In this document: positions 19,627-53,368 of the stretch, piece after piece | Numbering within the stretch: the stretch's first letter is position 1 | Layout: every line of letters starts with the position of its first letter | IMG/VR virus record: IMGVR_UViG_3300010883_000008 | Location: 2,668-66,667 of that record | Origin: a virus | Lineage: Duplodnaviria; Heunggongvirae; Uroviricota; Caudoviricetes | DNA length: 64,000 nucleotides | Direction: 5' to 3' (one strand) | The notes under the pieces: model-generated | Seen by the model: the letters and a program-made list of their open reading frames with translations, nothing else | What the model was told of the DNA's origin: nothing | Databases searched by the model: none | Position numbers and translations under genes: made by a program

Positions 19627-19664
19627 AAACTCAAGTTAAGGTGATCTGGGAGTCCATCCCCCAG

Positions 19665-30459: not shown

Positions 30460-31650
30460 CTACTTCTTAGATAGTTTGGCTTCTAAGGATTGGACGATCT
30501 GTCCAATGTTAATAGTGCTTCGGCGATGTTCCCCGAATTCCTTGTGAAGTGTTATCGAGCAGATGTCCCGCTTACTTCGGAACCCGTTCGTGTGAGAGTA
30601 CTGGTCCCGGGGAATTAGGGTCCGGAAACTTTCGATCACCTGCCCGCCAACGTCTACACGTTTTTGGTGGTGGATATGTCCAGTATACCAGTAGCGATGC
30701 TCACACCGACCGCACTCAATACGTTTATCTTCGGCCATGACTTTGTATAATTGTTCAGGTTTGCACTTATGACCGTGATGTACTCCAATGAAGTTGTTAC
30801 CGAACTCATGCCAGTGGAACCCATCAGGGCTCGTGTCAATAGTCACCCGGGGCTCATTCTCGTAAGCCGTCTCCATGGTTAGTCCCAAAAGCTGACTGGT
30901 TTGCTCGTCGTGGTTACCTATGGAGTTGATAACCCGAACCAGTTGGTGTTTCTGTAGGGCAGCTTCGATCATTCGCCGCATCAGACGGATACCCACCCGA
31001 GCTACTTTGGCCCAGCGAGTGTCAACGTCCAAAGAGTGCCCACTAGCTGCGGTCACATTGGCGGGAGTATCCGTATGGAACCAGTCTCCCAAATTGCAAA
31101 TCAGGGCTTCTTCCGTGTCGGGGGTTGCGGCCAAAACTTTCAAGAACCCTTCGGTCATTAAAGCCTCGGCAATGTCCAAATCCCAGTCAGCTTGTACTTC
31201 TTCATGCCAGCAATACAGCCCAATGTGTGCGTCACCTATGGGATAAACCGCCAATTCTTCCGAAGTCGAGTTTTGTGCAATCAGTTGCACTGGGGGGAGG
31301 GGAGTTAGTTCCTGACTGATCCCCGTGGCGAGATCCACAGCGAATTCTTTGAGTCGGTCAGAGTCGACGCTTGATTTGACCCACTGGAGTTTTTGCTCCC
31401 CGTCCGGGCCATAGAGGGTGGAGACTCCTTTTACAAAGTGAGATTCGGGTACTACCTTCGTCATGTCATGGTCAGGACTCCATCCCTGTAGCGAGGCCCT
31501 ACGGCGTACTCGTGAAAGAGTTTTAGTCACCGTATTCCGAGGGAGCTTTAATTTTCTAGCAATCTCAGCCTGTGAAGTTTCCCCCGACTCAAATAGTTCT
31601 ACAATCTTACGTTGAATATCCGTGTTGCAAAAGTCAACTAGTTTGGGCAT
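30460..31650 (-). CDS. HTH domain fused to calcineurin-like metallophosphoesterase (SbcD/Mre11-like motifs)
   Basis: 396 aa. N-terminal HTH (SQAEIARKLKLPRNTVTKTLSRV). Then GDAHIG, GDWFH, GNHDE, GVHHGH, GHIHH. Confidence 0.6.
   Translation of the reverse strand: MPKLVDFCNTDIQRKIVELFESGETSQAEIARKLKLPRNTVTKTLSRVRRRASLQGWSPDHDMTKVVPESHFVKGVSTLYGPDGEQKLQWVKSSVDSDRLKEFAVDLATGISQELTPLPPVQLIAQNSTSEELAVYPIGDAHIGLYCWHEEVQADWDLDIAEALMTEGFLKVLAATPDTEEALICNLGDWFHTDTPANVTAASGHSLDVDTRWAKVARVGIRLMRRMIEAALQKHQLVRVINSIGNHDEQTSQLLGLTMETAYENEPRVTIDTSPDGFHWHEFGNNFIGVHHGHKCKPEQLYKVMAEDKRIECGRCEHRYWYTGHIHHQKRVDVGGQVIESFRTLIPRDQYSHTNGFRSKRDICSITLHKEFGEHRRSTINIGQIVQSLEAKLSKK
31275..31290. repeat. palindrome family copy: GTGCAATCAGTTGCAC
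   Basis: 16-bp inverted repeat inside the phosphoesterase gene. Confidence 0.85.
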
Positions 31651-31670: not shown

Positions 31671-32318
31671 CTATTCAGCTTCCGTGATGACATCTGCAAT
31701 ATCAGTCATGTGTAACAGACTCAACCCAGTTGCAAAATCGGCTAAGGACAACCGTATGACCTTGATGCCGAAATGTCTCAGTTCCTCGCGTAATTGGGTA
31801 CTCAGATCTTCCCGACACTTTTTAGAATCGGCCAGTAGTTCACTGTAGTTATTATCGCAGATTACTTTGGAGATAGCAACTAGTGCAAAATCGTGCGAAG
31901 TGTCGTCATAGTCGTGGGTCTCGCATAAAAGTGCCCTTACGTCATGGATCTCATAGATCAGGACTCCCCGAAGGTGGAGCGGTTTATTGTCTCGGGTCGT
32001 GAGTTTCTGCTTAGGCAGATAGGTGGTCTGTCGCTTGATGGGGACGATTGTGGGAACATGGGTCACTAAGGGCCAGTACCAATGGATGCCTGTCAGCCTC
32101 CACCAGTTATCCCACCTACTCCAAAGAACGGGACGGAAAAGACCTTGAAGAAACATCCATCTAGGCCACCACATCCCGTTTGTATGGGTGAGTACTTTCA
32201 CATCCGCACCCCGAGTCCATTTGACCCCGGCTTGCGTAGAGTTAACTACCTCGAAATGAGGCAGAAACAAGACTATAAATTCAAATAGCCTTGTCAAGAC
32301 TGGAAACAATTCACCCAT
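31671..32318 (-). CDS. SPFH/band-7 (stomatin/HflK-like) domain membrane protein, putative
   Basis: 215 aa. N-terminal hydrophobic segment. GVKWTRG...GIHWYWPLV...TTRDNKPLHLRGVLIYEIHD...REDLSTQLREELRHFGIKVIRLSLADF follows the SPFH pattern. Confidence 0.45.
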   Translation of the reverse strand: MGELFPVLTRLFEFIVLFLPHFEVVNSTQAGVKWTRGADVKVLTHTNGMWWPRWMFLQGLFRPVLWSRWDNWWRLTGIHWYWPLVTHVPTIVPIKRQTTYLPKQKLTTRDNKPLHLRGVLIYEIHDVRALLCETHDYDDTSHDFALVAISKVICDNNYSELLADSKKCREDLSTQLREELRHFGIKVIRLSLADFATGLSLLHMTDIADVITEAE

Positions 32319-34255
32319 TATCCCACCTTAGTTTTAGTTAACTTGATCTCCGTCAATTGGGCAGTTATGTCAAATACTGGCATCAGAGCTACAGTGTTAC
32401 TCACCTCATCTGGAGTGAAAGTTAAAGGACTAATTCCTGACGCGTGTACGCCCGAATCTCGAATCTCTAAGTTCACATCCCCGTTAAGGTAGACGTTCTC
32501 AATCTCGATGGTGTAAGTATCCCCTATAGTTAGAGATAACTCTTGTGTGGCCTCAGTACTACCAAGCAAGGTCAATCCGTCCCCGGGGTTAGCCCTAGAA
32601 CCTAACGGGATCGTCCAAGGGACCGACTCAGTGGATTTAGGTACAGGATCTCGCAAGAGATTCGTAGGCGACGTGAACGTAGTCGAACCTATGTCCTCCA
32701 TCGAGTGAACGATTAGAGACATCTTAGCTTTTGGCCCCGGACTATAGTTGACTTTGATGTCCGTCAGCAGACCTGTGATCACGTCACCCTCAGGAGTGGT
32801 AAATGTAATCTTCTGACCCACATCCAAGCAAGTTACATAAGCACTCTCAACATCCCAGGCCTTACGGGCCATTTTCCATTCCTGAAAAGCTCGCACAGCA
32901 ACGTTGTAGGCAATCTCCCGATCAGGGATGTAAGTGTTCTCAATCTCCTCAGGAAGTATGCCCATCTCCGCTTGTAGATCCGGGTCATTAACGATAACCG
33001 CAAGTTGGTATTCAACCTTCTCCATTGCCGAAGCCGAAGGTGAACCTCCACCTTTACCGCCGCCACCTTGGCCCCCCGGACCACCTCCGGCATGCCCGGC
33101 CCCTCGACCGACACCCGCACCCATCTGACGCATGACAGCTTTGATCTGTTCAACGTCCTCTTTACCATGGGCGGCTTGGTGTTTCTCACCCAAGTTGTGG
33201 GCGTTCGCCAACTCAGGGTCTTGGGGGTTATCCAGAGCTTTGGCCGATACAGTTACTTCGTAGTCACCCTTCTGATAATGTGCCGAGTCATCATTGGGGT
33301 CGCCGTTAGTCATCCTTACCCCAGTCTCCCCCGAATTACCGTACATCAGTTCTTCGGTGTAGTCGGCGGGACCTGCATACTCACCGGCCCCTGTGATAAC
33401 AACGTCCAAGGCGTTCACCCTATCGTCGTTGATCTCCTTAAGCAGAATAGCGATCACCTTACGAGGTAAAGCATTGCCGATACAATGCTTCATTTTGGCC
33501 TTCTTCCCCTTCTTCTTAGTGTTCTTGGGGTTACTTTGACCACCTTGGGATTGTTGCTCTTTCTTCCCCCCAAGTTTGTCCTTCCATTCCCAGCAGCCCC
33601 GGACTTGGTATCGAGTAGGGCCTGATTGAATATCACGCTTCCGATTAGCAGACAGGACCGCCTCAGGGGGAAGAACCACGTCCACAGCAGAGTTATGGTC
33701 CTTCCAATCCTGAGTAACTAGGATACCGTTGCGATTGATGAAGAGATCCTGGCAAGCCGCCTGGGCAATCTTCATCATTTCTTGCATCATGTTCGTGCCG
33801 TTAGCGGGACCACATACTGTCTTAGTTGTGGGGGCAAACGCAGTCAAAGCCGGACTCAAGCCCCCCATCTCATGAGCAATGAGTTCCAGGGCATCCTTAG
33901 CGTTAGCCAAAGGCCCAGTAATGACAGGCTTCTTAGCTAGTCGAGACGCATACGAGTTGATGGAGAGTTGGACTTCATCATTCGAGAGTTCATCCTTCTC
34001 ATTGAAGTTCACAACCAGTCCGAAGACCCAACTGATCACCCCGTTAAAGCAGGACTCCACAATACCTTGGGATTCAAGGACCGAAGCGTCCAACTTGACC
34101 TGAAAAGGTTGCCACAAGAAGTTCTCGGGTTCCCACAGCCCATCCTCATTGGTGAGAACTACCGAAGCACTGTAGGACGACCGCATTGAAACGGTGACGT
34201 TCCAACTTACTAAGTTGTTAACCAGAGTCGAGGGGTAGGGTCCGTTACTAGCCAT
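32318..34255 (-). CDS. large Gly-rich protein, probable virion/structural component
   Basis: 645 aa. Gly run GAGHAGGGPGGQGGGGKGGG and Lys patch KNTKKKGKKAKMKH. No enzymatic motif recognised. Confidence 0.45.
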   Translation of the reverse strand: MASNGPYPSTLVNNLVSWNVTVSMRSSYSASVVLTNEDGLWEPENFLWQPFQVKLDASVLESQGIVESCFNGVISWVFGLVVNFNEKDELSNDEVQLSINSYASRLAKKPVITGPLANAKDALELIAHEMGGLSPALTAFAPTTKTVCGPANGTNMMQEMMKIAQAACQDLFINRNGILVTQDWKDHNSAVDVVLPPEAVLSANRKRDIQSGPTRYQVRGCWEWKDKLGGKKEQQSQGGQSNPKNTKKKGKKAKMKHCIGNALPRKVIAILLKEINDDRVNALDVVITGAGEYAGPADYTEELMYGNSGETGVRMTNGDPNDDSAHYQKGDYEVTVSAKALDNPQDPELANAHNLGEKHQAAHGKEDVEQIKAVMRQMGAGVGRGAGHAGGGPGGQGGGGKGGGSPSASAMEKVEYQLAVIVNDPDLQAEMGILPEEIENTYIPDREIAYNVAVRAFQEWKMARKAWDVESAYVTCLDVGQKITFTTPEGDVITGLLTDIKVNYSPGPKAKMSLIVHSMEDIGSTTFTSPTNLLRDPVPKSTESVPWTIPLGSRANPGDGLTLLGSTEATQELSLTIGDTYTIEIENVYLNGDVNLEIRDSGVHASGISPLTFTPDEVSNTVALMPVFDITAQLTEIKLTKTKVG

Positions 34256-36026
34256 CAGTATCTAATATCCCTTGAGGTATGTGTGAGGCGTCATGGCCTA
34301 GCTGCCAAACTTCGTGCAGCATCCCGCCATGTATTCGCTCTCGTATCAGTTCTTCAAGGTCATGCCTTCGAGTATGGGTCTGATTCACCAAAGTGGTGAA
34401 GTCTTCCGCAGATTGTACTGGGATGTTCCAATCGCCTGAGGGCTCGTTCCACAACAAGATCCACTTGTACTCCCCGAGACGAGCTTGAAATTCATCTACG
34501 AAAGATTGCCCCGTACCCGCAGCATCCGCCTCAGCATAGATCAAGTCTCGGACCCCAGTTAGAATCAGTATATCAGCTTTGGGCCAAGTATCAAGCAAGT
34601 CTTGTTCCCGTAGGTTCAATTTTGCGAGCATCCCCGCCTTTTCGATAGCTTTGGCGTTGGGTTCCAGCCCCGTGATGTCTAACCCATGTTCCGAGCAAGC
34701 CTTAACGAGTTCCCCCGAGAAGCTCCCCACCTCAAGGATTTTAGGGTCATCCTCCAATCGTTTCAACACCTCAGGAAGGATCTCCATGGATGCCTTAAAG
34801 TGCATCGCAGGTTTGTACCCCCATCGGGACTCTAGCCAACAGGTCTCCGGAGGATTAGCCGCACAGATTTCAGTGACCGCTTTCTCCCACAGATCCATAA
34901 CAGGGTCAATACTGAAAGTATCCGTCACGTGACGTTGAGCCTTTTCCGTAGCAGTCTTGATCCGTTCAGGGTCCTCAAAGAACCACTGGGTTGTGGCGAC
35001 CATCTGATTCACATCCGGCACCTGCCAAAGCGTTCCCAAACGTTCTTCTTTGAACGCAGGGTTGATTAGCATTGGACAATGCTCCGAGCCCATTAGCTCA
35101 GGCATCGTTGTGGTGTTGTTGAGAATCTGGAGTACTCCCAAGGCCGCAGCCTCAATCGTAGGCACCCCGAATCCTTCACCTTGTGAGGTAGTCAGACGAA
35201 CATCCGACATCTGCATCAGTTCCCCGACCTCCTCGTGTTCCAGTCCCCGACTCCAGTCGAATCCCGTAAAGGTCACATCTTCCCGAACGTCGTACATACG
35301 AGCTACTTTGGACAAATCGTACCCGTCCTGCCCACTGGGACCCTTTTGATGCATTATGGTGTGTGCAATCAAATGCACATCCTTATCCGGCCATGCTTTC
35401 TTTAATTGCCGGATGTAGTCGAAGGTCGCGTCCCACCGCTTGTGCCAAATGTTCCTGTCGCAGTTCAAGACTAAAAAGGTGTCGTCATGCAGAGGAACGT
35501 GGAGCTTCTTAGCCCATTTCCGCCGCAGGGCGTGCTTATCCACTTCAACATTGAGCTTGAACTTCTCAGGGTCCAGCATGTGAGGAATGACCCAATCCGA
35601 AGGGGCCTGTTTCTCCCACATAGTTTGAGCATATTCCGACAGATGAATTACCCGGTCTTTAGGCACCTCCAGAAAATAATCTCGACCATTCCAGGGGAGT
35701 TCGCTACCTTCCCACGGAAGCCAGAACAGTACAGGGATGTTTCTGGGGGCAAACTTTAGAGCCGACATGTCCAGGCATTGTTGAGTGTGATAGAAGACTA
35801 TGACACAGTCCGGTCGAATCTTCTCCAACTCACGGTCAATTACCGCGACCTTATCTAGTTCACGTATATGCCAACAGACAAGGTCATCTTCCTCGAAGGT
35901 GGGGGGGTTATTCGCCAGGATATAAACTTGATGGCCCCGGTCTCGGAATCCCCGAGCCAGCATACCCATCTGCATACCAAATCCTGAGGGTAAGTTAGGA
36001 CTTTCCCCGATCAGCACGATTCTCAT
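34248..36026 (-). CDS. bifunctional glycosyltransferase (GT4-like) plus class I SAM methyltransferase
   Basis: 592 aa. GT-B signature TSQGEGFGVPTIEAAALGV. C-terminal MTase motif I ILEVGSFSGELVKACSEHGLDITGLE. Confidence 0.65.
   Translation of the reverse strand: MRIVLIGESPNLPSGFGMQMGMLARGFRDRGHQVYILANNPPTFEEDDLVCWHIRELDKVAVIDRELEKIRPDCVIVFYHTQQCLDMSALKFAPRNIPVLFWLPWEGSELPWNGRDYFLEVPKDRVIHLSEYAQTMWEKQAPSDWVIPHMLDPEKFKLNVEVDKHALRRKWAKKLHVPLHDDTFLVLNCDRNIWHKRWDATFDYIRQLKKAWPDKDVHLIAHTIMHQKGPSGQDGYDLSKVARMYDVREDVTFTGFDWSRGLEHEEVGELMQMSDVRLTTSQGEGFGVPTIEAAALGVLQILNNTTTMPELMGSEHCPMLINPAFKEERLGTLWQVPDVNQMVATTQWFFEDPERIKTATEKAQRHVTDTFSIDPVMDLWEKAVTEICAANPPETCWLESRWGYKPAMHFKASMEILPEVLKRLEDDPKILEVGSFSGELVKACSEHGLDITGLEPNAKAIEKAGMLAKLNLREQDLLDTWPKADILILTGVRDLIYAEADAAGTGQSFVDEFQARLGEYKWILLWNEPSGDWNIPVQSAEDFTTLVNQTHTRRHDLEELIRERIHGGMLHEVWQLGHDASHIPQGILDTDG
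35363..35378. repeat. degenerate palindrome family copy: GTGCAATCAAATGCAC
   Basis: One half site is altered (ATGCAC). It lies inside the GT-MT gene. Confidence 0.5.
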
Positions 36027-36044
36027 CTACTCATACTCCAAAGG

Positions 36045-36704
36045 TCATGAAATTTTGCGTAAAAATCCATCCGGATTGTAAGTTATTATGTACTTTTCCC
36101 GAGATTTGTCTATTTTGAAATGGTCATCTTCCAAAAGAAATTTGTCAATGCCCCCAAGAGGCCCTCCTCGGGACTTCGGCTTCCCCTTAATAAAGGAGGT
36201 AGCCCCATCTTCTACAATAAAGTAGCACCCTTCAGTCACCAAAGGGGACCACCGAACTAAATCGTCATACACGCCTTGTATGGAGTGATCCGCGTCTTGA
36301 ATGACCATAACTCGATCAGTAGGACGTATCCACTGTAGCACCCTAGAAATAGCCGCCTGATCTGTAGTGTTACCCACAACATGACGAACGTTGGGGTGCT
36401 TAATAGCACACGCTCGATGATCAACTCCGATAACCAGCCCCATAGGATGCTTCGCTTGCATAACGTCGGCTAGGTACATAGTTGACCCTCCGCGATACGT
36501 ACCCAACTCAATAATGATTGACGGGTTAGTCTCGTGAATGATCTCTTGATACACCTGCAAATCTAGGGGACTCTTGATCATTTCGACCCCCCTCCAATGC
36601 ATCTTGGACTTGTGGCGTTTACTACCGTTTACAGGGCACCCCAAAACGTGTTGTTGATGCCACAGTAACCACTCATCCAAATTCATATTCTCGTAAAACG
36701 TCAC
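36045..36704 (-). CDS. TylF/macrocin-type sugar O-methyltransferase (class I SAM MTase)
   Basis: 219 aa. IIELGTYRGGSTMYLADV resembles the TylF family motif (IVETGVYRGGS). Lower G+C towards the 3' end. Confidence 0.6.
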   Translation of the reverse strand: MTFYENMNLDEWLLWHQQHVLGCPVNGSKRHKSKMHWRGVEMIKSPLDLQVYQEIIHETNPSIIIELGTYRGGSTMYLADVMQAKHPMGLVIGVDHRACAIKHPNVRHVVGNTTDQAAISRVLQWIRPTDRVMVIQDADHSIQGVYDDLVRWSPLVTEGCYFIVEDGATSFIKGKPKSRGGPLGGIDKFLLEDDHFKIDKSREKYIITYNPDGFLRKIS

Positions 36705-37471
36705 GGAGTTCTCCTAGGTTTTGGAACTTGCACAGTAGATAGCTCTTTGGGAAATTTCGCAAAGTAATCAGTGTCGGGGGGCAACATACCTTCGTCCGAC
36801 AGCATCTCACGATGAACATCCGAAAACGGAGGGAAGCCTCGCAGATGATGCATGTACGAGTAGAATCTTTGGGAGTGGTGATCCTGACCCCCATACGAGA
36901 GTTGATGAACTACCTTAGCATTGCTCGTAGGCTTACCTCGATGGAGTTGCCTCATATCGAATGCAATAATATCTCCGGGGTTAGCCCTCAAAGTAACTAC
37001 CTTCCCAGGTTGTACCAACTTGGGATTTAGGTCCTTGTAATACGAGCCTGGGATAATCTGTAGAGGTTCGTTGGTAGCCTCAAAATACATGATGACTTTG
37101 AGACACCGGTACTCGACCTCGGGGTTCCAATCTCGGCCTCTACCGAAAACCTTGTTAGAACAGTCTCGATGCCAGTTACTCCGAAACTTTTCAATTTGCG
37201 GGCGGATGTTGTGAATGCTCCAAACTTTAGGCCCAATGCATTGGTGAACCACATCTAAAATCTCAGAACGTACACTAAGCCTATCCAACGCGGACTCAGC
37301 CCCGAAGTGGATCTTAAGGGCGGCCAATTCACGAATGCGGGCACCTAAGTAGAGGGCTTCTTCCTTGGGAATAACTCCCGGAAACAACTCAAAATGTTGG
37401 GCCTTATACGTCATTTTTCTTCCACACAGAGCCTTCCGGATGGTGGCACCCGTATTGCTCGGTCTCCTCAA
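36701..37471 (-). CDS. phytanoyl-CoA dioxygenase (PhyH) family 2OG-Fe(II) oxygenase
   Basis: 256 aa. NWHRDCS (HxD), distal MRQLHRGKPTSN His, IIAFD strand. Confidence 0.6.
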   Translation of the reverse strand: MRRPSNTGATIRKALCGRKMTYKAQHFELFPGVIPKEEALYLGARIRELAALKIHFGAESALDRLSVRSEILDVVHQCIGPKVWSIHNIRPQIEKFRSNWHRDCSNKVFGRGRDWNPEVEYRCLKVIMYFEATNEPLQIIPGSYYKDLNPKLVQPGKVVTLRANPGDIIAFDMRQLHRGKPTSNAKVVHQLSYGGQDHHSQRFYSYMHHLRGFPPFSDVHREMLSDEGMLPPDTDYFAKFPKELSTVQVPKPRRTP

Positions 37472-37766
37472 ATCTGGCTAGGTTTATGAACTTCCGCTCG
37501 GCACTTACGTTACATTTGCAGATTCCACAATGAGCCTCAATGCCTTTCCCTTTCGAGTAGTAGCATTTAGCACACAGCCGGACTCGGGTCTCGAACCGTT
37601 CCCGGGTGACCCCTTTGCCAAAGGCCAGAGCCATGGCTACGGATAGGATCTTCCCGAAAACTGATTCGTTAAACCATCGTCCCACAGGGGCAGCCCAACC
37701 TTTATCGTTCAAACACGAAGCTCTCGATATCGTGATCGCCCGGAAAAATGTCCATATTGACTTCAC
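37404..37766 (-). CDS. small Cys-rich protein (weak)
   Basis: 120 aa. CAKCYYSKGKGIEAHCGICKCN...GCHH. It overlaps the PhyH gene by 68 nt. Confidence 0.3.
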   Translation of the reverse strand: MKSIWTFFRAITISRASCLNDKGWAAPVGRWFNESVFGKILSVAMALAFGKGVTRERFETRVRLCAKCYYSKGKGIEAHCGICKCNVSAERKFINLARFEETEQYGCHHPEGSVWKKNDV

Positions 37767-39078
37767 CGAATTTCATCCTCTCCCAGTATCCCGTATTCAT
37801 ATGGATGCCATGCATACCTATGTATCGGGAGCGGTTAACTATAGGAGTCAAACGACCCCAACCCGCTTGGTAGAAGCCTACCATTGTAGCGGCATCCTGT
37901 CCGGTTGGAGGTTGTCCAAAATACTTGAGTCGTGCCCGGGTGGTGGGGGCTCCCTCAGGCAGTAAGCGGTGACCCAGAACTTTCGGAGGGTCCTTCATAC
38001 TACGTCGGAACCAGTCCACGATAGACCGGTGGGGTCTCTTATTATAATCGCCCCCGAGGAACAGGTCTTGGAATGAGAACATGAACTTGTTCATCGAGTT
38101 CCAAGACTTCTTCGACATCATGTAAGCCCACCAATTGTCATAAGTGGTGCGTACTTTATGGCGATTTTTCGTCTTCCATTCGGTGGGTTCTTTGCATTTG
38201 ATCCACCCTTGAACCGCCCCGCAGTTGTCATAGTTAGCCTCGCCCCAAGTCATGAGGTTACGGCAATACTGCATGTAGTTCGGAGCTACGACCAAGTCGT
38301 CCTCGAAGAACCACCCATAGTCGAAGCCTAACTCGTCAAAGATCTGACGACGGGCGTCAATGATATTACGCCCACACCCGAGGTTGCGATCTCGCTGAAT
38401 AACATAGAGCTTGGGGAAGAGTTTTTGAGCCACGTTAATCTGAGCGTCAGTTACCCGTTGATCCTCGTACTTGTCGAGAAACAGGAACCAAGGCAATGTC
38501 TGGGATTCGGGGTTTTGTGCAATTGATTGCACAACCTCCGTGAAGTAGTCCGTACGGTTCCACCCTAGAATCACCCCGGCTTCCGACTTACCTACTTCTT
38601 GTTTGGGCAGATCGGACAGTTGGATTTCTTGTGCGAGCGACCACCTTTCCTCTTTCGACCAGTCTTTTTGGCGGGGGAGGGGGTCAAGATAGCGGAAATC
38701 GGCTGGAGCCGATTTGGATCGAATGCTGCGAAAATAGGCTGACGGGTCAGCCATTTCCTCCCACTGTTTGTGCCCATCCAGGGGATAAGGTCGTAGCATG
38801 ATAGTGCTTCGAGTTTTGCGGTCCCGGCCCTTCCAGACCCCGTCCTTCTGAATGGTTAGGATGACGATGGGAACTCGGTCAGCCCCCATCAGCCGCATTA
38901 TAAAGACAGCCCGTCCCGCGTCCTCCGTAATCGACCAGTGAGCAATCTCGTGGTCGTCAATGGTGCCTCCTTCTTTAAGGACAACATCCCTAACATCTCC
39001 GGTCCCCGCCACGAATTGAAATTTCTCGACTTCGTGTACTGCTGTAGTTAGTGCAGAGATGTAATCTACAATCGCCAT
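37702..39078 (-). CDS. glycosyltransferase family 2-like (GT-A fold)
   Basis: 458 aa. RDRNLGCGRNIIDARRQIFDELGFDYGWFFEDDLVV resembles the GT2 xRNxG..ARN.G......DDD core. Confidence 0.55.
   Translation of the reverse strand: MAIVDYISALTTAVHEVEKFQFVAGTGDVRDVVLKEGGTIDDHEIAHWSITEDAGRAVFIMRLMGADRVPIVILTIQKDGVWKGRDRKTRSTIMLRPYPLDGHKQWEEMADPSAYFRSIRSKSAPADFRYLDPLPRQKDWSKEERWSLAQEIQLSDLPKQEVGKSEAGVILGWNRTDYFTEVVQSIAQNPESQTLPWFLFLDKYEDQRVTDAQINVAQKLFPKLYVIQRDRNLGCGRNIIDARRQIFDELGFDYGWFFEDDLVVAPNYMQYCRNLMTWGEANYDNCGAVQGWIKCKEPTEWKTKNRHKVRTTYDNWWAYMMSKKSWNSMNKFMFSFQDLFLGGDYNKRPHRSIVDWFRRSMKDPPKVLGHRLLPEGAPTTRARLKYFGQPPTGQDAATMVGFYQAGWGRLTPIVNRSRYIGMHGIHMNTGYWERMKFGEVNMDIFPGDHDIESFVFER
38517..38532. repeat. 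palindrome family copy: GTGCAATTGATTGCAC
   Basis: 16-bp inverted repeat inside the GT2 gene. Confidence 0.85.
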
Positions 39079-39126
39079 GTTTATTTACTCCGTAAGTAGG
39101 TTCACAAGGTCAATATACCATAGTAT

Positions 39127-39552
39127 CTAAGGGAGGGCTATGAACCCCTCCTCGGGTTCCACATCCTGCCAAAGGCCCATCCATCGGGCGTGTTCTTTTT
39201 GGCCTCTAGGTTTCCCCAGTCTAGCCTGTAGTCGTTTCAAGTACAGATCAGTTAGTTCTAGCCCTCCAAAACGTTTTACCTGACGATCCCAAGGGCCTAT
39301 CCAAAAGTCCCGGTCTGATCTGCGGAGGTTCAAGTAGTCTATGACCACCGTCTCTTGTCCCGAGTCAAACAGGCACTCCACAAACAGTCGAGCAGTTGCC
39401 AACACCATAGGCTCCGCCGTAGGTATCTTACCCGCAGTATTCGTCAGCCTTTTCCGTAGGCTATCCATGCAGACAACCACGTGCCCTGAATTTCGGGACC
39501 ACGTGGTCTTGCCTGTATGAGGGTATCCCATCGTGAGGATCAGCTTAAGCAT
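39127..39552 (-). CDS. P-loop kinase (polynucleotide/nucleotide kinase-like)
   Basis: 141 aa. Walker A MGYPHTGKTTW and Walker B VVIDYLN. Confidence 0.5.
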   Translation of the reverse strand: MLKLILTMGYPHTGKTTWSRNSGHVVVCMDSLRKRLTNTAGKIPTAEPMVLATARLFVECLFDSGQETVVIDYLNLRRSDRDFWIGPWDRQVKRFGGLELTDLYLKRLQARLGKPRGQKEHARWMGLWQDVEPEEGFIALP

Positions 39553-42482
39553 TAGGGAGGGGTAGGTCCTCCTGCGACGTTGCAGACTACCGTACCGATG
39601 GGGTCTGATCCGTTAACGCCTTGCCAGTTGGATGCGTTGTCCGGGGACACTATCCCATAAGGCATTTCATCCGACTCATAGAGGACAGTACTGTTTTCCA
39701 AGATCTGCCATCTGATCCCCGTGAGGACCACTGTAAAGGTGGGGTCGTCATCTCCAGTATATATGCCTCCAGATTCTACGTATTCTTGACTAGTCCCCGA
39801 TTCCCCGAAGCTACCAACAAAGATGGTGGCACATAAGGCTTCTGCGGCTTGAGCAACTGCATAGCAGTCTACGTTACAAGCACACGGGCCTAAGTCTACT
39901 TCCGCATCCCAAGTGGTTGCGGCACCCGCAGTAATAGAGATCAAATCTCCGCAGGCATTTTTACCTACCGTCATGGTCTGCCCGGCTAAAGTGATCGTTA
40001 GACCGCAATAGTCCATAGCAGCGGTGAGTCCGGTGACTGCGAAGAAGCTAGTGTTGCTGTCCTCAACCATATCGGTAGCCAACCCACAGGGGCCTTGTGT
40101 GGTCAACCCGCACCCAGCTAAGTCCCCCGGAGCTACAGCCAATCCGCAAGCTCCGTCAGTCGTTAAACCGCAGCCTGCCAGAGCCGTGTTATCCACATGC
40201 AAAGTGTCCCCTACGGCAATCAAACCACATCCGGGCTCCGGAGTGATGTTGTATATCACCTGTAGCCCAATGTTCTGAGTGATGTAATTGCTCGTCGTGT
40301 AGCACGTGATATGCTGATGATAGTGCTGGTGCTGATGAATGTGACTATGCCCATGGTAATGCTCATGAGTGTGGTAGTGAGCATGGCTATGAGAATAGTT
40401 CTGAGTGAGATCTACGTTCGTAGTGTAATTCAGGTTCGTAGTACTGTAACAAGTCTTATGGTAATGAGCATGAAAGTGGTTGCTGATTTCCTGCGTCGTG
40501 TTGTAGTTAGTTGTTGAACTCGTATAGCAAGTAATGTGCTGGTGGTAATGCTGGTGGTTGTGCGTGTGGTTATTTACATGGTAATGGCTGTGCGTGTGGT
40601 AATGAGCGTGATGATGCTCATACGACAGGTTGATGTCGATGTTATTAGTGACGTAACTTGTACCGGTTACGTAGCAGTGCAGCTTACATCCATCCCCGAC
40701 TAAATTCATCCCCGCCAAGTCTGAGGCATTGACCGAGATTGAATCTCCCGAGTACAGACCACAGCCTACGCTAACGGATAGCTTACACCCGTAGTCTGAG
40801 ACAAGTCCGTCCCCCGCCAAGTCTTCCCCGACGACAGAGACATCGGCACCCACGTAAATACCACAGCCTCCGACTACATCCAAAGTGCAATCATACCCCG
40901 CCGTAAGTCCCTCGCCCGCGAGTGCCGCGTTATCAACCTCAAGAGCCCCGCCGTAGGTCTTAAGGCCACAACCTGTATTGATGTACAACTGACACCCGTC
41001 GTAACCTCCCCCCACCGAGAGCCCGTCACCGGCTAAGGCTTGACCGTCAACTCCGATAGTGCAATCCCCGCTGACTTTCAGCCCACAACCTGCCAGCGTG
41101 TAGGCATCCACTTCAAGCTGGTTGCCATACAGTTGAAGACCACAGCCAAAGTCTACGTAAAGGCCGCACTGATCCGACCGTAATCCGGGTCCCGCAAGAG
41201 CCTTGGTATCAATGTTGAGTTCCCCACCTTCACAGGTTAGGCAGTCTCCATAGTTGATATACTGACAATCCCAGGGGATAGGTAGAGGAATTCTCGCTTC
41301 AAATCCCACCCGAGTAACCGTCTCACCTATCTTCATCGAGGGCATAGTTAAATTAGTAGAACACTTATCTTCCGTCAATTCGGCCTCAGATTTACGGGTG
41401 AATCCAAAGGACTGGTTCTTTTGAGATTGACTAACCGTCTTGACCTTAATGACCGGCCCAAATGCGAAGAACTTGTCCCCGTAAGACGAGATCCCCGTCC
41501 CACTAGCAAAGGTGCCCCTCCAGGCGTCTTCCACCGTCATGAAGTCCGATTGATCAAGAACTTCGGTACGAGCGTAAGGGATCGAAGTTTGCGTACTGTC
41601 AGACTTAACGTATCCCCAAGGTTTGTACTGAGCATGTCCGAAATCACAGTCGACTTCGACTTCCTTTTCTTTACAACACGTAAAGAATTCGCCGGACTCA
41701 ATGTGGAAAAACGTCAGACACAGGCATACTGTGAAGTCCTGACTGAAATTACAGTTTGTGGATACCCCAATGGCTTTCTTAGTAGCGTCAAAGGGTTTCA
41801 TCTTGACAGTAGGTTTTAACTGAAATACGTCGTCTTCTGGGTTTTGTTTTAGTTTCCATTCAACCTTGAACAACGCCACTACAGGTACATCGTCTTCCGT
41901 CTTACATTTCCACGACCACAACCCCGCAAAGAGCGAAGTCTCACAGCATAGCATCGTGTCAGGACCATTGATCTTTATGGCAACGTCAAACTCGTCGCAC
42001 ATGTTGTGGAGTTGAATGACTTTCGCGGGGTCGGCTTGTCCCGATTTGCCACCCTTACCCGTCTGTTTTTTAGGGCACTTGTATTTGACCGTTCGAGCCT
42101 CAGACGCATCCGAGACACACCCCGCCTCGTCGTAAGCCATTACTCGCCAATGGAGATCATCCCCGTTCTCGATGTCATCGATGATCTTCATCTCATAGGA
42201 AGTAGCCGTAGTGATTACGGCCTTAAGAGTAGGTCCTTGAAACGATGAATTTCGAGACCACTGCAAGACATACTTAGTAGCTCCCGACACCGCATCCCAA
42301 GAGAGCGTGATCCCTGAGCCACCCCCATCGGCTACCGCGTAGTTATTCGGGCAATGTTCTGACTCGTGTTCCGGGTAGTCAAGGATGGGGGTCTCAAGCG
42401 TACAGTCACGCATCCAATCCACTGCGGGTTGCAGTGGAAAAGTGTAGATATCTTGGACGAGGAAATCGGTAGTGTTATACAT
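39552..42482 (-). CDS. tail fibre / receptor-binding protein with FN3-like, Cys-Gly repeat and His/Tyr-rich repeat regions
   Basis: 976 aa. FN3-like SWDAVSGATKYVLQWSRNS. Repeated LAGxGL..GCGL units. Three tandem His-rich units (HAHYHTHSHYHVNNHTHNHQHYHQHITCYT). Confidence 0.6.
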   Translation of the reverse strand: MYNTTDFLVQDIYTFPLQPAVDWMRDCTLETPILDYPEHESEHCPNNYAVADGGGSGITLSWDAVSGATKYVLQWSRNSSFQGPTLKAVITTATSYEMKIIDDIENGDDLHWRVMAYDEAGCVSDASEARTVKYKCPKKQTGKGGKSGQADPAKVIQLHNMCDEFDVAIKINGPDTMLCCETSLFAGLWSWKCKTEDDVPVVALFKVEWKLKQNPEDDVFQLKPTVKMKPFDATKKAIGVSTNCNFSQDFTVCLCLTFFHIESGEFFTCCKEKEVEVDCDFGHAQYKPWGYVKSDSTQTSIPYARTEVLDQSDFMTVEDAWRGTFASGTGISSYGDKFFAFGPVIKVKTVSQSQKNQSFGFTRKSEAELTEDKCSTNLTMPSMKIGETVTRVGFEARIPLPIPWDCQYINYGDCLTCEGGELNIDTKALAGPGLRSDQCGLYVDFGCGLQLYGNQLEVDAYTLAGCGLKVSGDCTIGVDGQALAGDGLSVGGGYDGCQLYINTGCGLKTYGGALEVDNAALAGEGLTAGYDCTLDVVGGCGIYVGADVSVVGEDLAGDGLVSDYGCKLSVSVGCGLYSGDSISVNASDLAGMNLVGDGCKLHCYVTGTSYVTNNIDINLSYEHHHAHYHTHSHYHVNNHTHNHQHYHQHITCYTSSTTNYNTTQEISNHFHAHYHKTCYSTTNLNYTTNVDLTQNYSHSHAHYHTHEHYHGHSHIHQHQHYHQHITCYTTSNYITQNIGLQVIYNITPEPGCGLIAVGDTLHVDNTALAGCGLTTDGACGLAVAPGDLAGCGLTTQGPCGLATDMVEDSNTSFFAVTGLTAAMDYCGLTITLAGQTMTVGKNACGDLISITAGAATTWDAEVDLGPCACNVDCYAVAQAAEALCATIFVGSFGESGTSQEYVESGGIYTGDDDPTFTVVLTGIRWQILENSTVLYESDEMPYGIVSPDNASNWQGVNGSDPIGTVVCNVAGGPTPP
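40270..40700. repeat. tandem coding repeats (about 3 units) encoding His/Tyr-rich HxHxH segments
   Basis: Repetitive DNA with units such as atggtaatg / gtgctggtg. Composition is visibly AT-richer than the surrounding gene. Confidence 0.6.
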
Positions 42483-42488
42483 AAATGC

Positions 42489-42872: not shown

Positions 42873-42874
42873 GA

Positions 42875-52198: not shown

Positions 52199-53368
52199 TT
52201 AGTTTCCTAGAAGTATCTCACGTATAGCTCGTCGCATTTCTTCGACGTTGCCCATAGCCACGCGGGCGGAACGGAAGGTGGAGGTCACTAGTAGGTGGGT
52301 CTCTTCCAAGATAATCACCCCTTTAGGGGAATCGCTAGGTCCAATATAGTCTCCATAGGTTTTGAAGTCAAAGTGGTCCCCGAGTTGTATCTCAAGTTCC
52401 GAAGTCTCCCCGCGTACCAGTATCAAAGGTCGCTCAGGCGGAGTTATGTCCCCGATTGCTCCGTCTCCCGTAGGGAGGGGTAAAGCGTCGAGTACTTTAG
52501 CCACGGTCACTGCGGCCATGCACTTGAATCCTGTTAAGTCGTCCACACGTAGGCTCCGTGTGGGCACCAAACCTGCGGTGGCATCGAATGCGTGAATACC
52601 GTGCAACGTCGGGTACTGGGCGATTACGTCGTCTGGGTGGGTAACTGAGAACAGCACGTGTCCCGGCACCCCTAACATCCCCGCCATGTGAGCAAAGCCT
52701 GAATCGTTGCCTATGAAGTAGCGACAATTCGAGAGCATCGACAACTGGATGGGAAGGGCCTCAGATTCGTCACTCGCTTTGTGTGAATGTTCGTGAATAA
52801 ACCCGTACTCGTCCGAAGTGCCCAACCAGAGGATACTGGCTCCCCCGACAATCAACCGTTTAGCTACCTCTTCAAATCGAGAGATCGGCCAACGTCGATT
52901 AGGGTTACTCGCTCCGGGGTGAATAGCCACCATGGGGCGACCTTCAAACAGAGTGGGTTGATAGGTCAGTGTAAACTGAGCGGGCCGAATGCTTAGACCA
53001 ATGTGGTCCCCGAACAGCTTGTAGTATTCTCCCTCACGTATTGTTCGGGATGTTGCAATCGCTCCCGAGAAGTCCAGCATGATGTCGAACTTTGATCGGA
53101 CTTGGGCATCGTTTAGTCGTTGGCCCTCCTCAACATAGTCGACCCCTCGAACCAGTCCCATCAAAGCTCCTTGATGGGGCATGACGGACGCCGTGATCTC
53201 ACAGTGATGAAGAGTCTTTAAGGCTTGAGCTACCCCGCCGATCCCCATCAAAACGTCCCCGACTCCCCCGGTATAGTGAAGACAAATCTTCTGACCTTTC
53301 CACGACTCCGGTAGAGTGCGTCGAGGTTCTTTAGGAGCAGCGGCTAAAACTGTGAAAGGTAAAGTCAT
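52199..53368 (-). CDS. glycosyltransferase family 9 (ADP-heptose:LPS heptosyltransferase-like)
   Basis: 389 aa. RYFIGNDSGFAHMAGMLGVPGHVLFSVTHPDD matches the GT9 C-terminal signature GNDSG..H.A.A.G.P...LFG.T.P. Confidence 0.6.
   Translation of the reverse strand: MTLPFTVLAAAPKEPRRTLPESWKGQKICLHYTGGVGDVLMGIGGVAQALKTLHHCEITASVMPHQGALMGLVRGVDYVEEGQRLNDAQVRSKFDIMLDFSGAIATSRTIREGEYYKLFGDHIGLSIRPAQFTLTYQPTLFEGRPMVAIHPGASNPNRRWPISRFEEVAKRLIVGGASILWLGTSDEYGFIHEHSHKASDESEALPIQLSMLSNCRYFIGNDSGFAHMAGMLGVPGHVLFSVTHPDDVIAQYPTLHGIHAFDATAGLVPTRSLRVDDLTGFKCMAAVTVAKVLDALPLPTGDGAIGDITPPERPLILVRGETSELEIQLGDHFDFKTYGDYIGPSDSPKGVIILEETHLLVTSTFRSARVAMGNVEEMRRAIREILLGN

What the first reader, a model, noticed from the sequence alone, without database searches (positions are those of the whole stretch)
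34248..39552. Dense glycosylation, O-methylation and hydroxylation cassette immediately downstream of the tail fibre gene
Six genes are packed between the fibre gene and a large Gly-rich virion-like protein. They are a P-loop kinase, a GT2 glycosyltransferase, a Cys-rich ORF, a PhyH-family 2OG-Fe(II) dioxygenase, a TylF-type sugar O-methyltransferase and a GT4-SAM-MTase fusion. GT plus TylF-type O-MTase combinations are known to build methylated deoxyhexose glycans. The placement suggests enzymatic decoration of the fibre or virion with methylated sugars, or a DNA hypermodification route that uses the kinase. Two further GTs (52199-53368, 62110-63477), a radical SAM fragment and a second PhyH-like gene (25350-26258) make this an unusually heavy investment in covalent modification for a phage.
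Basis: partly seen in the sequence, partly recalled or inferred. Interest (0 to 1): 0.75.

Follow-up and report, generated by a model that had tools for sequence, protein, structure and literature searches.

The report
Sugar-modifying gene cassette inside phage tail genes
An uncultured phage, probably marine, carries a real cluster of sugar-adding, sugar-methylating and hydroxylating enzymes wedged between two tail genes; half of it is conserved across the whole phage lineage and most likely decorates tail proteins with methylated sugars, though no experiment shows this.

Summary
The six ORFs exist at 34248-39552 on the minus strand. They are packed (gaps of 48 nt or less, four overlaps) between a fibre-like tail protein (39552-42482) and a second tail protein (32318-34255).

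Family calls mostly hold, with corrections:
- The "GT2" is a GT-A enzyme closest to GnT-I (GT13), with an EDD motif.
- The "TylF-type" methyltransferase belongs to the CmcI/rhamnosyl-O-methyltransferase family.
- The dioxygenase is a divergent PhyH-family enzyme with an intact HxD...H triad. It is not TET/JBP.
- The Cys-rich ORF is a conserved 93-aa zinc-ribbon-like gene.
- The kinase call is marginal and Pnk-like.

New result: about 25 related metagenomic phage contigs share the order tape measure, 127-aa protein, fibre, GT-A, Cys protein, GT4-methyltransferase, tail protein, replication genes. The kinase, dioxygenase and CmcI gene are absent from all relatives. They sit at variable positions where relatives carry GT17, GT2, another methyltransferase, a lectin-like protein or an HNH gene.

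No thymidylate-synthase-like, TET or cytosine-methyltransferase gene was found in the window, and no transmembrane segments occur in the cassette.

Best reading (about 0.5): cytoplasmic glycosylation of tail-tip proteins with a strain-variable, O-methylated glycan. Rivals are host envelope glycan remodelling and DNA glycosylation (unlikely).

The parts
39552..42482 (-). 976-aa tail-tip or fibre protein, immediately upstream of the cassette. It carries eight LAGxGL repeats and a unique His-rich insert at about aa 621-745.
   Evidence: It follows the tape measure (42875-46570) and a 127-aa conserved protein. Its N-terminal ~600 aa are conserved in relatives and its C-terminus is variable. It gives a weak PHROG 'tail protein' hit. 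Repeats and His-rich insert.
39127..39552 (-). 141-aa P-loop kinase, Pnk-like (Walker A GYPHTGKT; D30-x-x-R33). Accessory: absent from relatives at this site.
   Evidence: AAA_33 at 1.4e-6, 29.1 bits against a cut-off of 27. phrog_505 polynucleotide kinase at 3.3e-7. Matches only the N-terminus of T4 Pnk in the PDB, E=0.73. No homologue in any related locus.
37702..39078 (-). 458-aa glycosyltransferase. It has a phage-specific N-terminal beta domain (~aa 1-120), a linker, and a GT-A catalytic domain (aa ~165-455) with an invariant EDD motif. GnT-I (GT13)-like. Lineage core gene.
   Evidence: Cellular homologues share only residues 167-454.
37404..37685 (-). 93-aa Cys-rich, zinc-ribbon-like protein with conserved CxxC...CxxCxC...C. 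It nearly always accompanies the GT-A gene. Lineage core gene.
   Evidence: Alignment A3 shows six invariant Cys. The start was chosen by comparison with L002. The gene was found in nearly all related loci. There are no significant family or PDB hits.
36701..37414 (-). 237-aa divergent PhyH-family Fe(II)/2-oxoglutarate dioxygenase with triad H82-x-D84...H158. Accessory.
   Evidence: Absent from relatives. GC is 0.48 against ~0.51 for core genes.
36045..36704 (-). 219-aa CmcI/rhamnosyl-O-methyltransferase-family SAM methyltransferase. Accessory.
   Evidence: PF04989 at 2.4e-37. CmcI structures at 6e-12, with the D...ED metal-site positions aligned. NCBIfam RhmsylMtase scores 90.6 bits, far below the equivalog cut-off of 400. 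GC is 0.46.
34248..36026 (-). 592-aa fusion of a GT4 retaining glycosyltransferase (aa 1-~390, EX7E motif E284...E292) and a class I SAM methyltransferase (aa ~400-592). Core gene in most of the lineage.
   Evidence: The best solved relative is chlorovirus NY-2A B736L (3oy2, 5.7e-18). Full-length homologues exist in at least 15 related loci.
32318..34255 (-). 645-aa tail protein with a Gly/Lys-rich centre and a variable C-terminal end. It is always adjacent to the GT-A/Cys pair and is the candidate acceptor or partner.
   Evidence: Alignments A2 and A6. 4 of 18 family members hit phrog_1887 'tail protein' at 1.5e-7. Adjacency is kept even where gene order differs.
52199..53368 (-). GT9 (heptosyltransferase-like) gene directly after the major capsid protein gene. 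Outside the cassette. Present in some relatives only.
   Evidence: PF01075 at 2.1e-13. NCBIfam heptosyltransferase hits below cut-off. Homologues at the same place in L044, L047 and L049-51, but not in others.
62110..63477 (-). 455-aa weakly GT-B-like protein next to ParB_N, an HTH protein and the large terminase. Outside the cassette.
   Evidence: Glyco_trans_1_2 at 6.7e-4, below cut-off. Weak NCBIfam GT4 hits.

Best explanation
The region is a glycosylation module embedded in the late tail-tip operon of a virulent-looking siphovirus-type phage of about 100 kb.

The module has a core shared by the whole lineage:
- a soluble inverting GT-A enzyme, GnT-I-like, with a phage-specific N-terminal domain
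- a small zinc-ribbon-like partner protein
- a soluble retaining GT4 enzyme fused to a SAM methyltransferase

Inferred mechanism:
1. Late in infection these enzymes are made together with the tail-tip proteins.
2. They use host nucleotide sugars. No sugar-nucleotide synthesis genes are present here.
3. They build a short O-methyl-capped glycan on a tail protein in the cytoplasm before assembly. The most likely acceptor is the always-adjacent 645-aa protein or the fibre.
4. In this phage, variable positions in the module have gained extra tailoring enzymes: a CmcI-type sugar O-methyltransferase and a PhyH-type hydroxylase. Relatives carry GT17, GT2, another methyltransferase or a lectin-like protein instead. 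The glycan is therefore predicted to differ between strains.
5. The Pnk-like kinase is an accessory insertion whose link to the glycan is unproven.

Shown: gene content, enzyme families, catalytic motifs, synteny and conservation. Inferred: the acceptor, the sugars, the order of the steps and the biological role (shielding or tuning of host recognition).
For: **Operon structure.** All genes are co-oriented with gaps of 48 nt or less, and no promoter or terminator excess is seen.

**Conservation.** The order tape measure, 127 aa, fibre, GT-A, Cys protein, GT4-MT, 645-aa protein, replication genes recurs in about 25 contigs. A search seeded with the unrelated 127-aa protein found the module in 18 of 19 loci. 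The GT-A, Cys and 645-aa genes stay adjacent even where their order is permuted (L005, L011, L032).

**Tail context.** The 645-aa family hits a PHROG tail protein.

**Variable positions hold glycan-tailoring genes.** Relatives carry GT17 (1.3e-31), GT2, Methyltransf_24 and a ConA-like lectin domain there.

**Catalytic motifs are intact.**
- EDD in the GT-A
- EX7E in the GT4
- HxD...H in the dioxygenase
- D...ED in the CmcI enzyme

**Soluble enzymes.** No transmembrane-grade hydrophobic segment occurs in any cassette protein.

**Phage-specific domain.** The GT-A N-terminal domain is absent from the cellular homologues.

**Closest solved relatives.**
- GT-A: glycoprotein GlcNAc-transferases GnT-I, POMGnT1 and GnT-II
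- GT4: chlorovirus B736L

**Precedents.**
- Chlorovirus A64R fuses GT domains to an O-methyltransferase in a capsid-glycan pathway (PMC4691112).
- Mycobacteriophage capsid and tail-tube glycosylation is cited in PMC12619734 and PMC13313380.
- GT4 with or without MT and GT2 genes lie directly after the capsid gene in Pontimonas phage phiPsal1 and Microcystis phage Mae-JY09.
Against: - No direct evidence identifies the acceptor.
- GT4, GT-A, GT9 and CmcI families are also typical of LPS, O-antigen and exopolysaccharide assembly. That assembly likewise uses soluble or peripheral enzymes at the cytoplasmic face.
- Conserved synteny among relatives may partly reflect common descent rather than functional coupling.
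- No homology was found between the GT-A N-terminal domain and the tail proteins.
- No obvious Ser/Thr-rich acceptor tract exists in the 645-aa protein. Its maximum is 37% S/T over 30 aa.
- Authors who saw glycosyltransferases among tail-fibre genes of marine myophages favoured host O-chain modification (PMC7029224).
- About 35 kb of this phage genome lies outside the window and was not inspected.
Confidence: 0.5

Rival explanations
1. Host envelope glycan remodelling. The enzymes act on lipid-linked or nascent host surface polysaccharide (O-antigen, capsule or EPS) at the cytoplasmic face. They add and methyl-cap or phosphorylate sugars. This would block superinfection or stop progeny from re-adsorbing to infected cells and debris.
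For: - The enzyme families are those of LPS and O-antigen assembly: GT4, GT9 heptosyltransferase-like and CmcI rhamnosyl-O-MT-like.
- GT4 plus kinase plus methyltransferase recalls polymannan O-antigen assembly and chain termination (WbdA-C and WbdD; from my own knowledge, not tested).
- Pelagimyophage and cyanomyophage host-recognition clusters mix tail-fibre genes with glycosyltransferases, and the authors favour O-chain modification (PMC7029224).
- Bacterial homologues of the GT-A catalytic domain exist.
Against: - Lineage-wide retention at a fixed place between two tail genes, and adjacency to the 645-aa tail protein that survives rearrangement, are not expected for an exclusion function.
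- The genes sit in the late structural operon of a phage with its own replisome, and no integrase was seen in the window.
- No Gtr-like membrane proteins and no transmembrane segments are present.
- The GT-A carries a phage-specific extra domain.
Confidence: 0.25
2. DNA hypermodification. The glycosyltransferases, with the kinase and dioxygenase, decorate a modified base (5hmC or 5hmU) in phage DNA to evade restriction.
For: - Phage GT-A and GT-B enzymes do glycosylate DNA, and such loci often sit near ParB and other DNA genes (bioRxiv 10.1101/2023.12.21.572611).
- This window has a ParB_N gene beside a GT-B-like gene.
- It also has an HD 5'-deoxynucleotidase-like gene and a Pnk-like kinase.
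- 35 kb of the genome is unseen.
Against: - The defining partners are missing from the window. No ThyS or dCMP-hydroxymethylase, no TET/JBP and no C5-methyltransferase appeared among the scanned ORFs.
- The dioxygenase is PhyH-type by sequence profile and by structure, with no TET/JBP hit among the top matches.
- The cassette lies in the tail operon, not with replication or nucleotide genes.
- Relatives keep the GT core without any kinase or dioxygenase.
- The GT-A motif is GnT-I-type EDD, not the R...DDD...EDY/F pattern reported for DNA GT-A enzymes.
Confidence: 0.07
3. Mixed bag. The lineage core (GT-A, Cys protein, GT4-MT) has one function. The kinase, PhyH and CmcI genes are unrelated morons that landed in a permissive insertion site. 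The kinase could serve nucleic-acid end repair, and PhyH and CmcI could act on a small molecule.
For: - All three genes are absent from every relative.
- PhyH and CmcI have lower GC than the core genes.
- The same sites hold an HNH endonuclease in L026 and a 9-kb island of tiny ORFs in L041.
- The kinase resembles only Pnk.
Against: - CmcI-family enzymes are sugar O-methyltransferases.
- Several of the closest structural relatives of the dioxygenase act on sugars (HygX, SnoN, EvdO1).
- Most annotated genes at these positions in relatives are glycan enzymes.
- This argues that at least PhyH and CmcI serve the same pathway.
Confidence: 0.15

Closest known systems
Mycobacteriophage virion glycosylation (Che8, Corndog, Myrna; Freeman et al. 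2023, known here only through citing papers PMC12619734 and PMC13313380)
   Same: Phage-encoded soluble glycosyltransferases, with methyltransferases in some phages, are inferred or shown to decorate virion structural proteins in the cytoplasm.
   Different: - There the acceptors are the C-termini of capsid and tail-tube subunits, and the genes are accessory.
- Here the module is lineage-wide, sits between tail-tip genes, has a GnT-I-like GT-A plus a zinc-ribbon partner, and nothing has been shown experimentally.
- No sequence relationship was tested, because that paper could not be read.
Chlorovirus capsid glycosylation machinery (A64R GT-GT-O-methyltransferase fusion; B736L GT4-type enzyme)
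   Same: - It is a virus-encoded, cytoplasmic, host-independent glycosylation system.
- It fuses a GT to an O-methyltransferase that caps a terminal sugar (PMC4691112).
- B736L is the best solved relative of the GT4 domain here (5.7e-18).
   Different: - The virus is eukaryotic and the acceptor is the major capsid protein.
- In A64R the fused GT domains are GT-A, whereas here a GT-B (GT4) is fused.
- Chloroviruses also encode sugar-nucleotide synthesis, which this window does not.
Glycosyltransferases in the host-recognition cluster of marine pelagimyophages and cyanomyophages (PMC7029224)
   Same: Marine phages in which glycosyltransferases lie among tail-fibre genes in a hypervariable region.
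   Different: - Those are T4-like myophages, mostly with GT8.
- The genes are scattered and variable rather than forming a fixed core.
- The authors interpret them as host O-chain modification. Neither case has been tested.
Bacterial cytoplasmic adhesin O-glycosylation (SdgA/SdgB, GtfA/GtfB GT4-type; TibC/Aah heptosyltransferases related to GT9). From my own knowledge.
   Same: Soluble GT4-like and GT9-like enzymes glycosylate repetitive surface proteins before export or assembly. There is a weak NCBIfam hit to SdgA (E=0.0013).
   Different: No significant homology was found. The acceptors there are Ser-Asp or Ser-rich repeats, which are not seen here.
Phage DNA sugar-hypermodification clusters (C5-MT/TET or ThyS plus GT; bioRxiv 10.1101/2023.12.21.572611)
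   Same: Phage GT-A and GT-B enzymes, sometimes with extra sugar-modifying genes.
   Different: The defining base-hydroxymethylating partner is absent from the window. The dioxygenase is PhyH-type. The location is the tail operon.

Membership tests
PhyH family Fe(II)/2OG dioxygenase (PF05721) | Pfam model match above the gathering score | tested here: not met
   The protein itself gives no Pfam hit. However, 51 of 58 of its remote homologues match PhyH, best 7.2e-19.
PhyH family Fe(II)/2OG dioxygenase (PF05721) | Double-stranded beta-helix fold closest to PhyH-type enzymes | tested here: met
   The AlphaFold model has pLDDT 93.1. Foldseek top hits are HygX, SnoN, human PhyH, proline hydroxylase and EvdO1, at E about 1e-9. 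The profile hits EctD at 2.8e-16 and PhyH at 2e-14.
PhyH family Fe(II)/2OG dioxygenase (PF05721) | HxD...H iron-binding triad | tested here: met
   H82, D84 and H158 are invariant or nearly invariant in alignment A1 and are present in the window protein.
TET/JBP 5-methylpyrimidine dioxygenase | Sequence or fold similarity to TET/JBP | tested here: not met
   No TET/JBP appears among the 49 PDB profile hits or among the 50 Foldseek matches listed.
CmcI / rhamnosyl O-methyltransferase family (PF04989) | Pfam match above the gathering score, plus SAM-MT fold and metal-site residues | tested here: met
   129.1 bits against a cut-off of 23.2. The alignment to CmcI structures keeps the D...ED positions.
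Mycobacterial-type rhamnosyl O-methyltransferase equivalog (NF045824) | Score above the equivalog cut-off | tested here: not met
   90.6 bits against a cut-off of 400. It is the same family, but the substrate cannot be transferred.
TylF macrocin O-methyltransferase family (PF05711) | Pfam match | tested here: not met
   TylF is not among the hits at E <= 0.01.
GT4 retaining glycosyltransferase | Glycos_transf_1 match above cut-off and the EX7E motif | tested here: met
   40.8 bits against a cut-off of 26.4. E284 and E292 are invariant in A5. PDB profile hits are B736L, MshA and BshA.
Class I SAM methyltransferase (C-terminal domain of the fusion) | Family model match and motif I | tested here: inconclusive
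   Methyltransf_23 scores 22.9 bits, below the cut-off of 27. The profile hits methyltransferase structures at 7e-4 to 0.05 over positions 415-506. The motif VLEVGSFxG is conserved.
GT2 (PF00535) | Pfam match above the gathering score | tested here: not met
   17.9 bits against a cut-off of 23.3.
GT-A fold, GnT-I (GT13)-like | GT-A fold with an EDD metal and nucleotide-sugar motif | tested here: met
   EDD is invariant. Homologues carry PF03071. Foldseek gives 1foa at 1.9e-10, then POMGnT1 and GnT-II. The sequence-profile hit to GnT-I is only E=0.036, so CAZy family membership itself is not established.
P-loop kinase, AAA_33 / polynucleotide-kinase-like | Family match, Walker A motif and Pnk-type D-x-x-R | tested here: inconclusive
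   29.1 bits against a cut-off of 27. phrog_505 at 3.3e-7. The PDB match to T4 Pnk covers only 21 residues, E=0.73. The motifs were seen by inspection of the sequence.
Phage DNA sugar-hypermodification cluster | GT next to ThyS-like hydroxymethylase, or to C5-MT plus TET | tested here: not met
   None was found among the window ORFs scanned with Pfam. The 35 kb of genome outside the window was not tested.
Gtr-type seroconversion module | Membrane proteins GtrA/B/C in a temperate phage near the attachment site | tested here: not met
   There is no transmembrane-grade segment in the cassette proteins, and no integrase among the ORFs scanned.
Phage virion glycosylation system | Glycan covalently attached to virion proteins | not testable with these tools
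   This needs virions or recombinant co-expression followed by mass spectrometry.

The most novel reading that the evidence does not exclude
A whole lineage of uncultured siphoviruses of about 60-105 kb, probably marine, requires glycosylation of its tail-tip or receptor-binding protein. A fixed three-gene core (GnT-I-like GT-A with a phage-specific docking domain, a zinc-ribbon partner, and a GT4-methyltransferase fusion) builds the base glycan. Swappable genes (O-methyltransferase, hydroxylase, kinase, GT17, GT2) diversify it. Host range or escape from host defences would then evolve at the level of the glycan rather than the protein sequence.
Probability: 0.3. Interest if true: 0.8.

Novelty: new variant of a known kind. 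Interest (0 to 1): 0.55.

Why it matters
Virion glycosylation by phage-encoded enzymes has been shown only for a few mycobacteriophages, where it is dispensable. A glycosylation module fixed inside the tail-tip operon of an entire environmental phage lineage would be different. Its exchangeable tailoring genes would make sugars a routine and evolvable part of the phage host-recognition apparatus.

It would also give concrete candidates for experiments: three core enzymes and two candidate acceptor proteins. These could settle the standing ambiguity over why marine phages keep glycosyltransferases among their tail-fibre genes.

If the host-remodelling rival is right instead, the module would be a conserved late-expressed exclusion system, which is also poorly documented.

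Tried and rejected
- **DNA search of isolated phages.** Megablast of 32000-43000 found no match.
- **Protein search of isolated phages.** tblastn with the 645-aa protein and the GT-A found no match. The terminase reaches 25% identity at most. No cultured relative and no host were identified.
- **Single-protein scans of IMG/VR.** Scans with the dioxygenase and the GT4-MT found nothing. Alignment-based scans were needed.
- **Word-indexed homologue searches.** The dioxygenase returned only itself. The 645-aa protein returned itself plus one relative.
- **Structure of the 645-aa protein.** Its fold remains unknown. Its PDB profile search gave nothing significant.
- **Cys-rich protein.** Only non-significant zinc-ribbon (Rpb12) matches and one Lambda_tail_I hit at E=0.008. 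The idea that it is a gpL-like metal-cluster tail protein is not supported, but it is not excluded either.
- **GT-A N-terminal domain.** hhalign against the tail proteins, the Cys protein, the GT4-MT and the 127-aa protein found no relationship.
- **Reaching the rest of the 99-kb contig.** Look-ups with proteins near the window ends returned only short contigs.
- **Bacterial genomes.** The scan found only catalytic-domain homologues in two MAGs, with no prophage and no host clue.
- **Radical SAM.** No CxxxCxxC motif occurs in minus-strand ORFs.
- **Key paper.** Freeman et al. 2023 could not be read.
- **Alignment A6.** It was too divergent to seed a locus scan.

Full report
**Setting**

The window is one contiguous stretch of a tailed phage, with every substantial ORF on the minus strand and no tRNA genes. 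In transcription order it encodes the following.
- Packaging and head: a weakly GT-B-like protein, ParB_N, an HTH protein, a gpA-type large terminase, portal, a MuF-like protein, a probable scaffold and major capsid protein, then a GT9 glycosyltransferase.
- Tail: head-tail and tail genes, a 1231-aa tape measure, a conserved 127-aa protein, and a 976-aa protein.
- The six reported ORFs, then a 645-aa protein.
- Accessory genes: an SPFH protein, an HTH-phosphoesterase and an HD nucleotidase-like protein.
- Replication: DnaC-like, DnaB, primase, PolA, a helicase, RecA, RusA, and CobS/CobT-like proteins.

The DNA has no match among 50,697 deposited phage genomes. The terminase is at most 25% identical to any isolate. 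The same sequence occurs on a 99,426-bp metagenomic contig. Sample names suggest Arctic Ocean metagenomes, but that is my reading of the record names and was not tested.

**Check of the observation**

They are packed as an operon, with overlaps of 1, 11, 4 and 8 nt and gaps of 48, 16 and 18 nt. Promoter-like and terminator-like sites do not exceed shuffled expectation.

- **Kinase (39127-39552).** It just passes Pfam AAA_33 (29.1 bits against 27) and hits PHROG 'polynucleotide kinase'. Beyond a Walker A motif and a D-x-x-R motif, it resembles only the first 21 residues of T4 Pnk in the PDB.
- **458-aa protein (37702-39078).**
  - It fails the GT2 threshold.
  - It has 24 homologues, several carrying GNT-I (PF03071) or GT2 hits.
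  - The motif E259-D260-D261 is invariant.
  - A confident model (pLDDT 91.5) has GnT-I, POMGnT1 and GnT-II as closest solved structures.
  - The first ~120 residues form a separate beta-rich domain. Shorter phage versions and the two bacterial homologues found lack it.
- **Cys-rich ORF.** It is a genuine gene of about 93 aa. Homologues of 89-109 aa align from residue ~28 of the 120-aa ORF. A GTG at 37685 corresponds to the ATG of the L002 homologue. Six Cys residues are invariant in a CxxC...CxxCxC...C pattern. Only non-significant zinc-ribbon similarity was found.
- **Dioxygenase.**
  - It is called as 237 aa in public data and has no direct Pfam hit.
  - An exhaustive HMMER search found 82 remote homologues, and 51 of the 58 aligned hit Pfam PhyH.
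  - The family profile hits EctD, PhyH, SnoK and HygX.
  - H82, D84 and H158 are conserved.
  - A pLDDT-93 model matches HygX, SnoN, PhyH and EvdO1. No TET/JBP enzyme appears in the listed matches.
- **O-methyltransferase.** It is a clear member of the CmcI/rhamnosyl-O-methyltransferase family (2.4e-37; CmcI structures 6e-12). It is not TylF, and it scores far below the NCBIfam equivalog cut-off.
- **592-aa fusion.**
  - It is a GT4 enzyme with the EX7E motif, joined to a class I methyltransferase-like C-terminal domain.
  - Both parts are conserved together in at least 15 relatives.
  - Its best solved relative, by a wide margin, is chlorovirus NY-2A B736L.

**Side claims**

- GT9 at 52199-53368 is confirmed.
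- 62110-63477 is only weakly GT-B-like.
- 25350-26258 is a PhyH-fold paralogue (hhalign 99.6%), but the iron ligands do not align. It is probably not an active dioxygenase.
- No radical-SAM CxxxCxxC motif was found in any minus-strand ORF.

**What the surroundings add**

The main new result is comparative. Homologues of the GT-A protein lie on long phage contigs with the same architecture:

tape measure, 127-aa protein, fibre-like protein, [0-2 variable genes], GT-A, Cys protein, [0-2 variable genes], GT4-MT, [0-2 variable genes], 645-aa protein, 394-aa-like protein, DnaC, DnaB, primase.

To avoid circularity I repeated the search with the 127-aa protein.
- Of the 19 loci found, 18 carry the module. 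Only the most distant (L055, 37% identity) lacks it.
- A tblastn check showed that the Cys gene follows GT-A even where my ORF filter had dropped it.
- In one sub-group the order is Cys, 645-aa protein, GT-A, or 645-aa protein, GT-A, Cys, without the GT4 fusion nearby (L005, L011, L032). The three genes remain adjacent.

The kinase, the PhyH enzyme and the CmcI methyltransferase have no homologue at this site in any relative. PhyH and CmcI also have lower GC than the core genes (0.48 and 0.46 against ~0.51).

At the same variable positions, relatives carry other genes:
- a GT17 enzyme (1.3e-31)
- GT2 enzymes
- a Methyltransf_24 enzyme
- a ConA-like lectin-domain protein
- an HNH endonuclease
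- in one case, a 9-kb island of tiny ORFs

The cassette is therefore a lineage-wide three-gene core plus a strain-specific set of tailoring genes.

**The flanking proteins**

- **976-aa protein.** It has a conserved N-terminal ~600 aa and a variable C-terminus, eight LAGxGL repeats and a weak PHROG tail hit.
- **645-aa family.** It has conserved N-terminal and central-C domains, a Gly/Lys-rich low-complexity centre and a variable C-terminal end. Four of 18 members hit phrog_1887 'tail protein' at 1.5e-7.

The cassette therefore lies inside the tail-tip block, not merely beside it.

**Mechanism**

The shown facts are these.
- The enzymes are soluble, with no transmembrane-grade segments.
- Their catalytic motifs are intact.
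- They are co-oriented and tightly coupled with the tail-tip genes.
- The core is conserved across the lineage.
- Variable glycan-tailoring genes occupy defined positions.
- The window holds no sugar-nucleotide synthesis genes, whereas more distant GT-A-bearing contigs carry epimerase/dehydratase and aminotransferase genes.

From these I infer cytoplasmic glycosylation of a tail-tip protein using host nucleotide sugars.
- The retaining GT4 and the inverting GnT-I-like GT-A add sugars.
- The fused methyltransferase caps a terminal sugar.
- In this phage, CmcI adds a further O-methyl group and PhyH hydroxylates either a sugar or an acceptor residue.
- The 645-aa protein is the leading acceptor candidate because it is invariably adjacent. 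The fibre and, through the GT9 gene, the capsid are alternatives.

This parallels two systems. One is chlorovirus capsid glycosylation, including a GT/O-methyltransferase fusion (PMC4691112). The other is mycobacteriophage virion glycosylation, as cited in PMC12619734 and PMC13313380. Two isolated phages, Pontimonas phiPsal1 and Microcystis Mae-JY09, also place GT4, with or without MT and GT2 genes, directly after the capsid gene.

**Rivals**

- **Host envelope remodelling** is the serious alternative. These enzyme families are typical of LPS and O-antigen assembly. Authors who noted glycosyltransferases among tail-fibre genes of marine myophages favoured that reading (PMC7029224). Against it:
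  - the fixed position and lineage-wide retention
  - adjacency to the tail protein that survives rearrangement
  - the late-operon context in an apparently virulent phage
  - the phage-specific domain on the GT-A
- **DNA glycosylation** is unlikely for this cassette.
  - The defining hydroxymethylating partner (ThyS-like, or C5-MT plus TET) is what marks such clusters. None was found in the window.
  - The dioxygenase is not TET/JBP.
  - Relatives keep the GTs without a kinase or dioxygenase.
  - It cannot be fully excluded, because 35 kb of the genome is unseen. The separate GT-B-like gene next to ParB (62110-63477) is a better candidate for a DNA role than the cassette.
- **Mixed bag.** A further possibility is that the three accessory genes, or at least the kinase, are unrelated insertions.

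**Novelty and verdict**

The individual enzymes are ordinary families. Phage genes for glycosyltransferases near structural or fibre genes have been noticed before.

What I could not find described is a conserved GT-A / zinc-ribbon / GT4-methyltransferase core fixed between tail-tip genes across a whole uncultured lineage, with exchangeable tailoring genes.

I rate it a new variant of a known kind and of moderate interest. It has a clear experimental path, but nothing yet shows what is glycosylated.

Noticed in passing
window ~40248-40622 (aa ~621-745 of the 976-aa protein, minus strand): A duplicated His/Tyr/Thr-rich insert ('HHHAHYHTHSHYHVNNHTHNHQHYHQHITCYT...'), 30% His over 60 aa, is embedded between LAGxGL fibre repeats. 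It is absent from all 11 homologues examined. It may be a metal-binding or pH-sensing element in a tail fibre.
   Followed up: partly
window 25350-26258 (minus): A second PhyH-fold protein (hhalign 99.6% to the dioxygenase family profile) lies between DnaB and the primase. The HxD and distal His positions align to G-R-H and Y, so it is probably a non-catalytic paralogue.
   Followed up: partly
window 52199-53368 (minus): A GT9 heptosyltransferase-like gene lies directly after the major capsid protein gene. Homologues sit at the same place in some relatives (L044, L047, L049-51) but not in others.
   Followed up: partly
window 61361-63477 (minus): A weakly GT-B-like 455-aa protein lies next to a ParB_N protein, an HTH protein and the terminase. 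This pairing has been reported near DNA sugar-modification genes in other phages.
   Followed up: no
window 30460-31650 (minus): This 396-aa protein has an N-terminal sigma-70 region-4-like HTH and clear metallophosphoesterase motifs (GDAH, GDWFH, GNHD, GH, GHIHH) that Pfam did not report.
   Followed up: no
window 31671-32318 and 29863-30450 (minus): An SPFH/Band-7 protein and an HD-domain YfbR-like 5'-deoxynucleotidase are inserted between the tail block and the replication block. At least the SPFH gene is absent from relatives at this position.
   Followed up: partly
window 6441-10932 (minus): A CobS-like AAA_5/CbbQ_C ATPase (527 aa) and a CobT-like VWA protein (940 aa) form a pair. From my own knowledge, such pairs occur in many marine phages and have no agreed function.
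   Followed up: no
L041/L017 (IMGVR_UViG_3300037069_000769), locus L041 ~12900-20000: A ~9-kb island of about 25 very small ORFs (60-200 aa) is inserted between the fibre gene and the GT-A gene. It marks the same junction as an insertion hot spot.
   Followed up: no
L010 and L011 (contigs SUTE22-1 scaffold_591 and Ga0315336_1001093): More distant carriers of the GT-A catalytic domain pair it with NDP-sugar epimerase/dehydratase, a DegT aminotransferase, MptE-like and several methyltransferase genes. This amounts to a fuller amino/deoxy-sugar pathway.
   Followed up: no
L020 13411-14964: A 517-aa ConA-like lectin/glucanase (Laminin_G_3) protein sits between the GT4-MT gene and the 645-aa tail protein in two relatives. 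It may be an extra receptor-binding or glycan-binding tail component.
   Followed up: no
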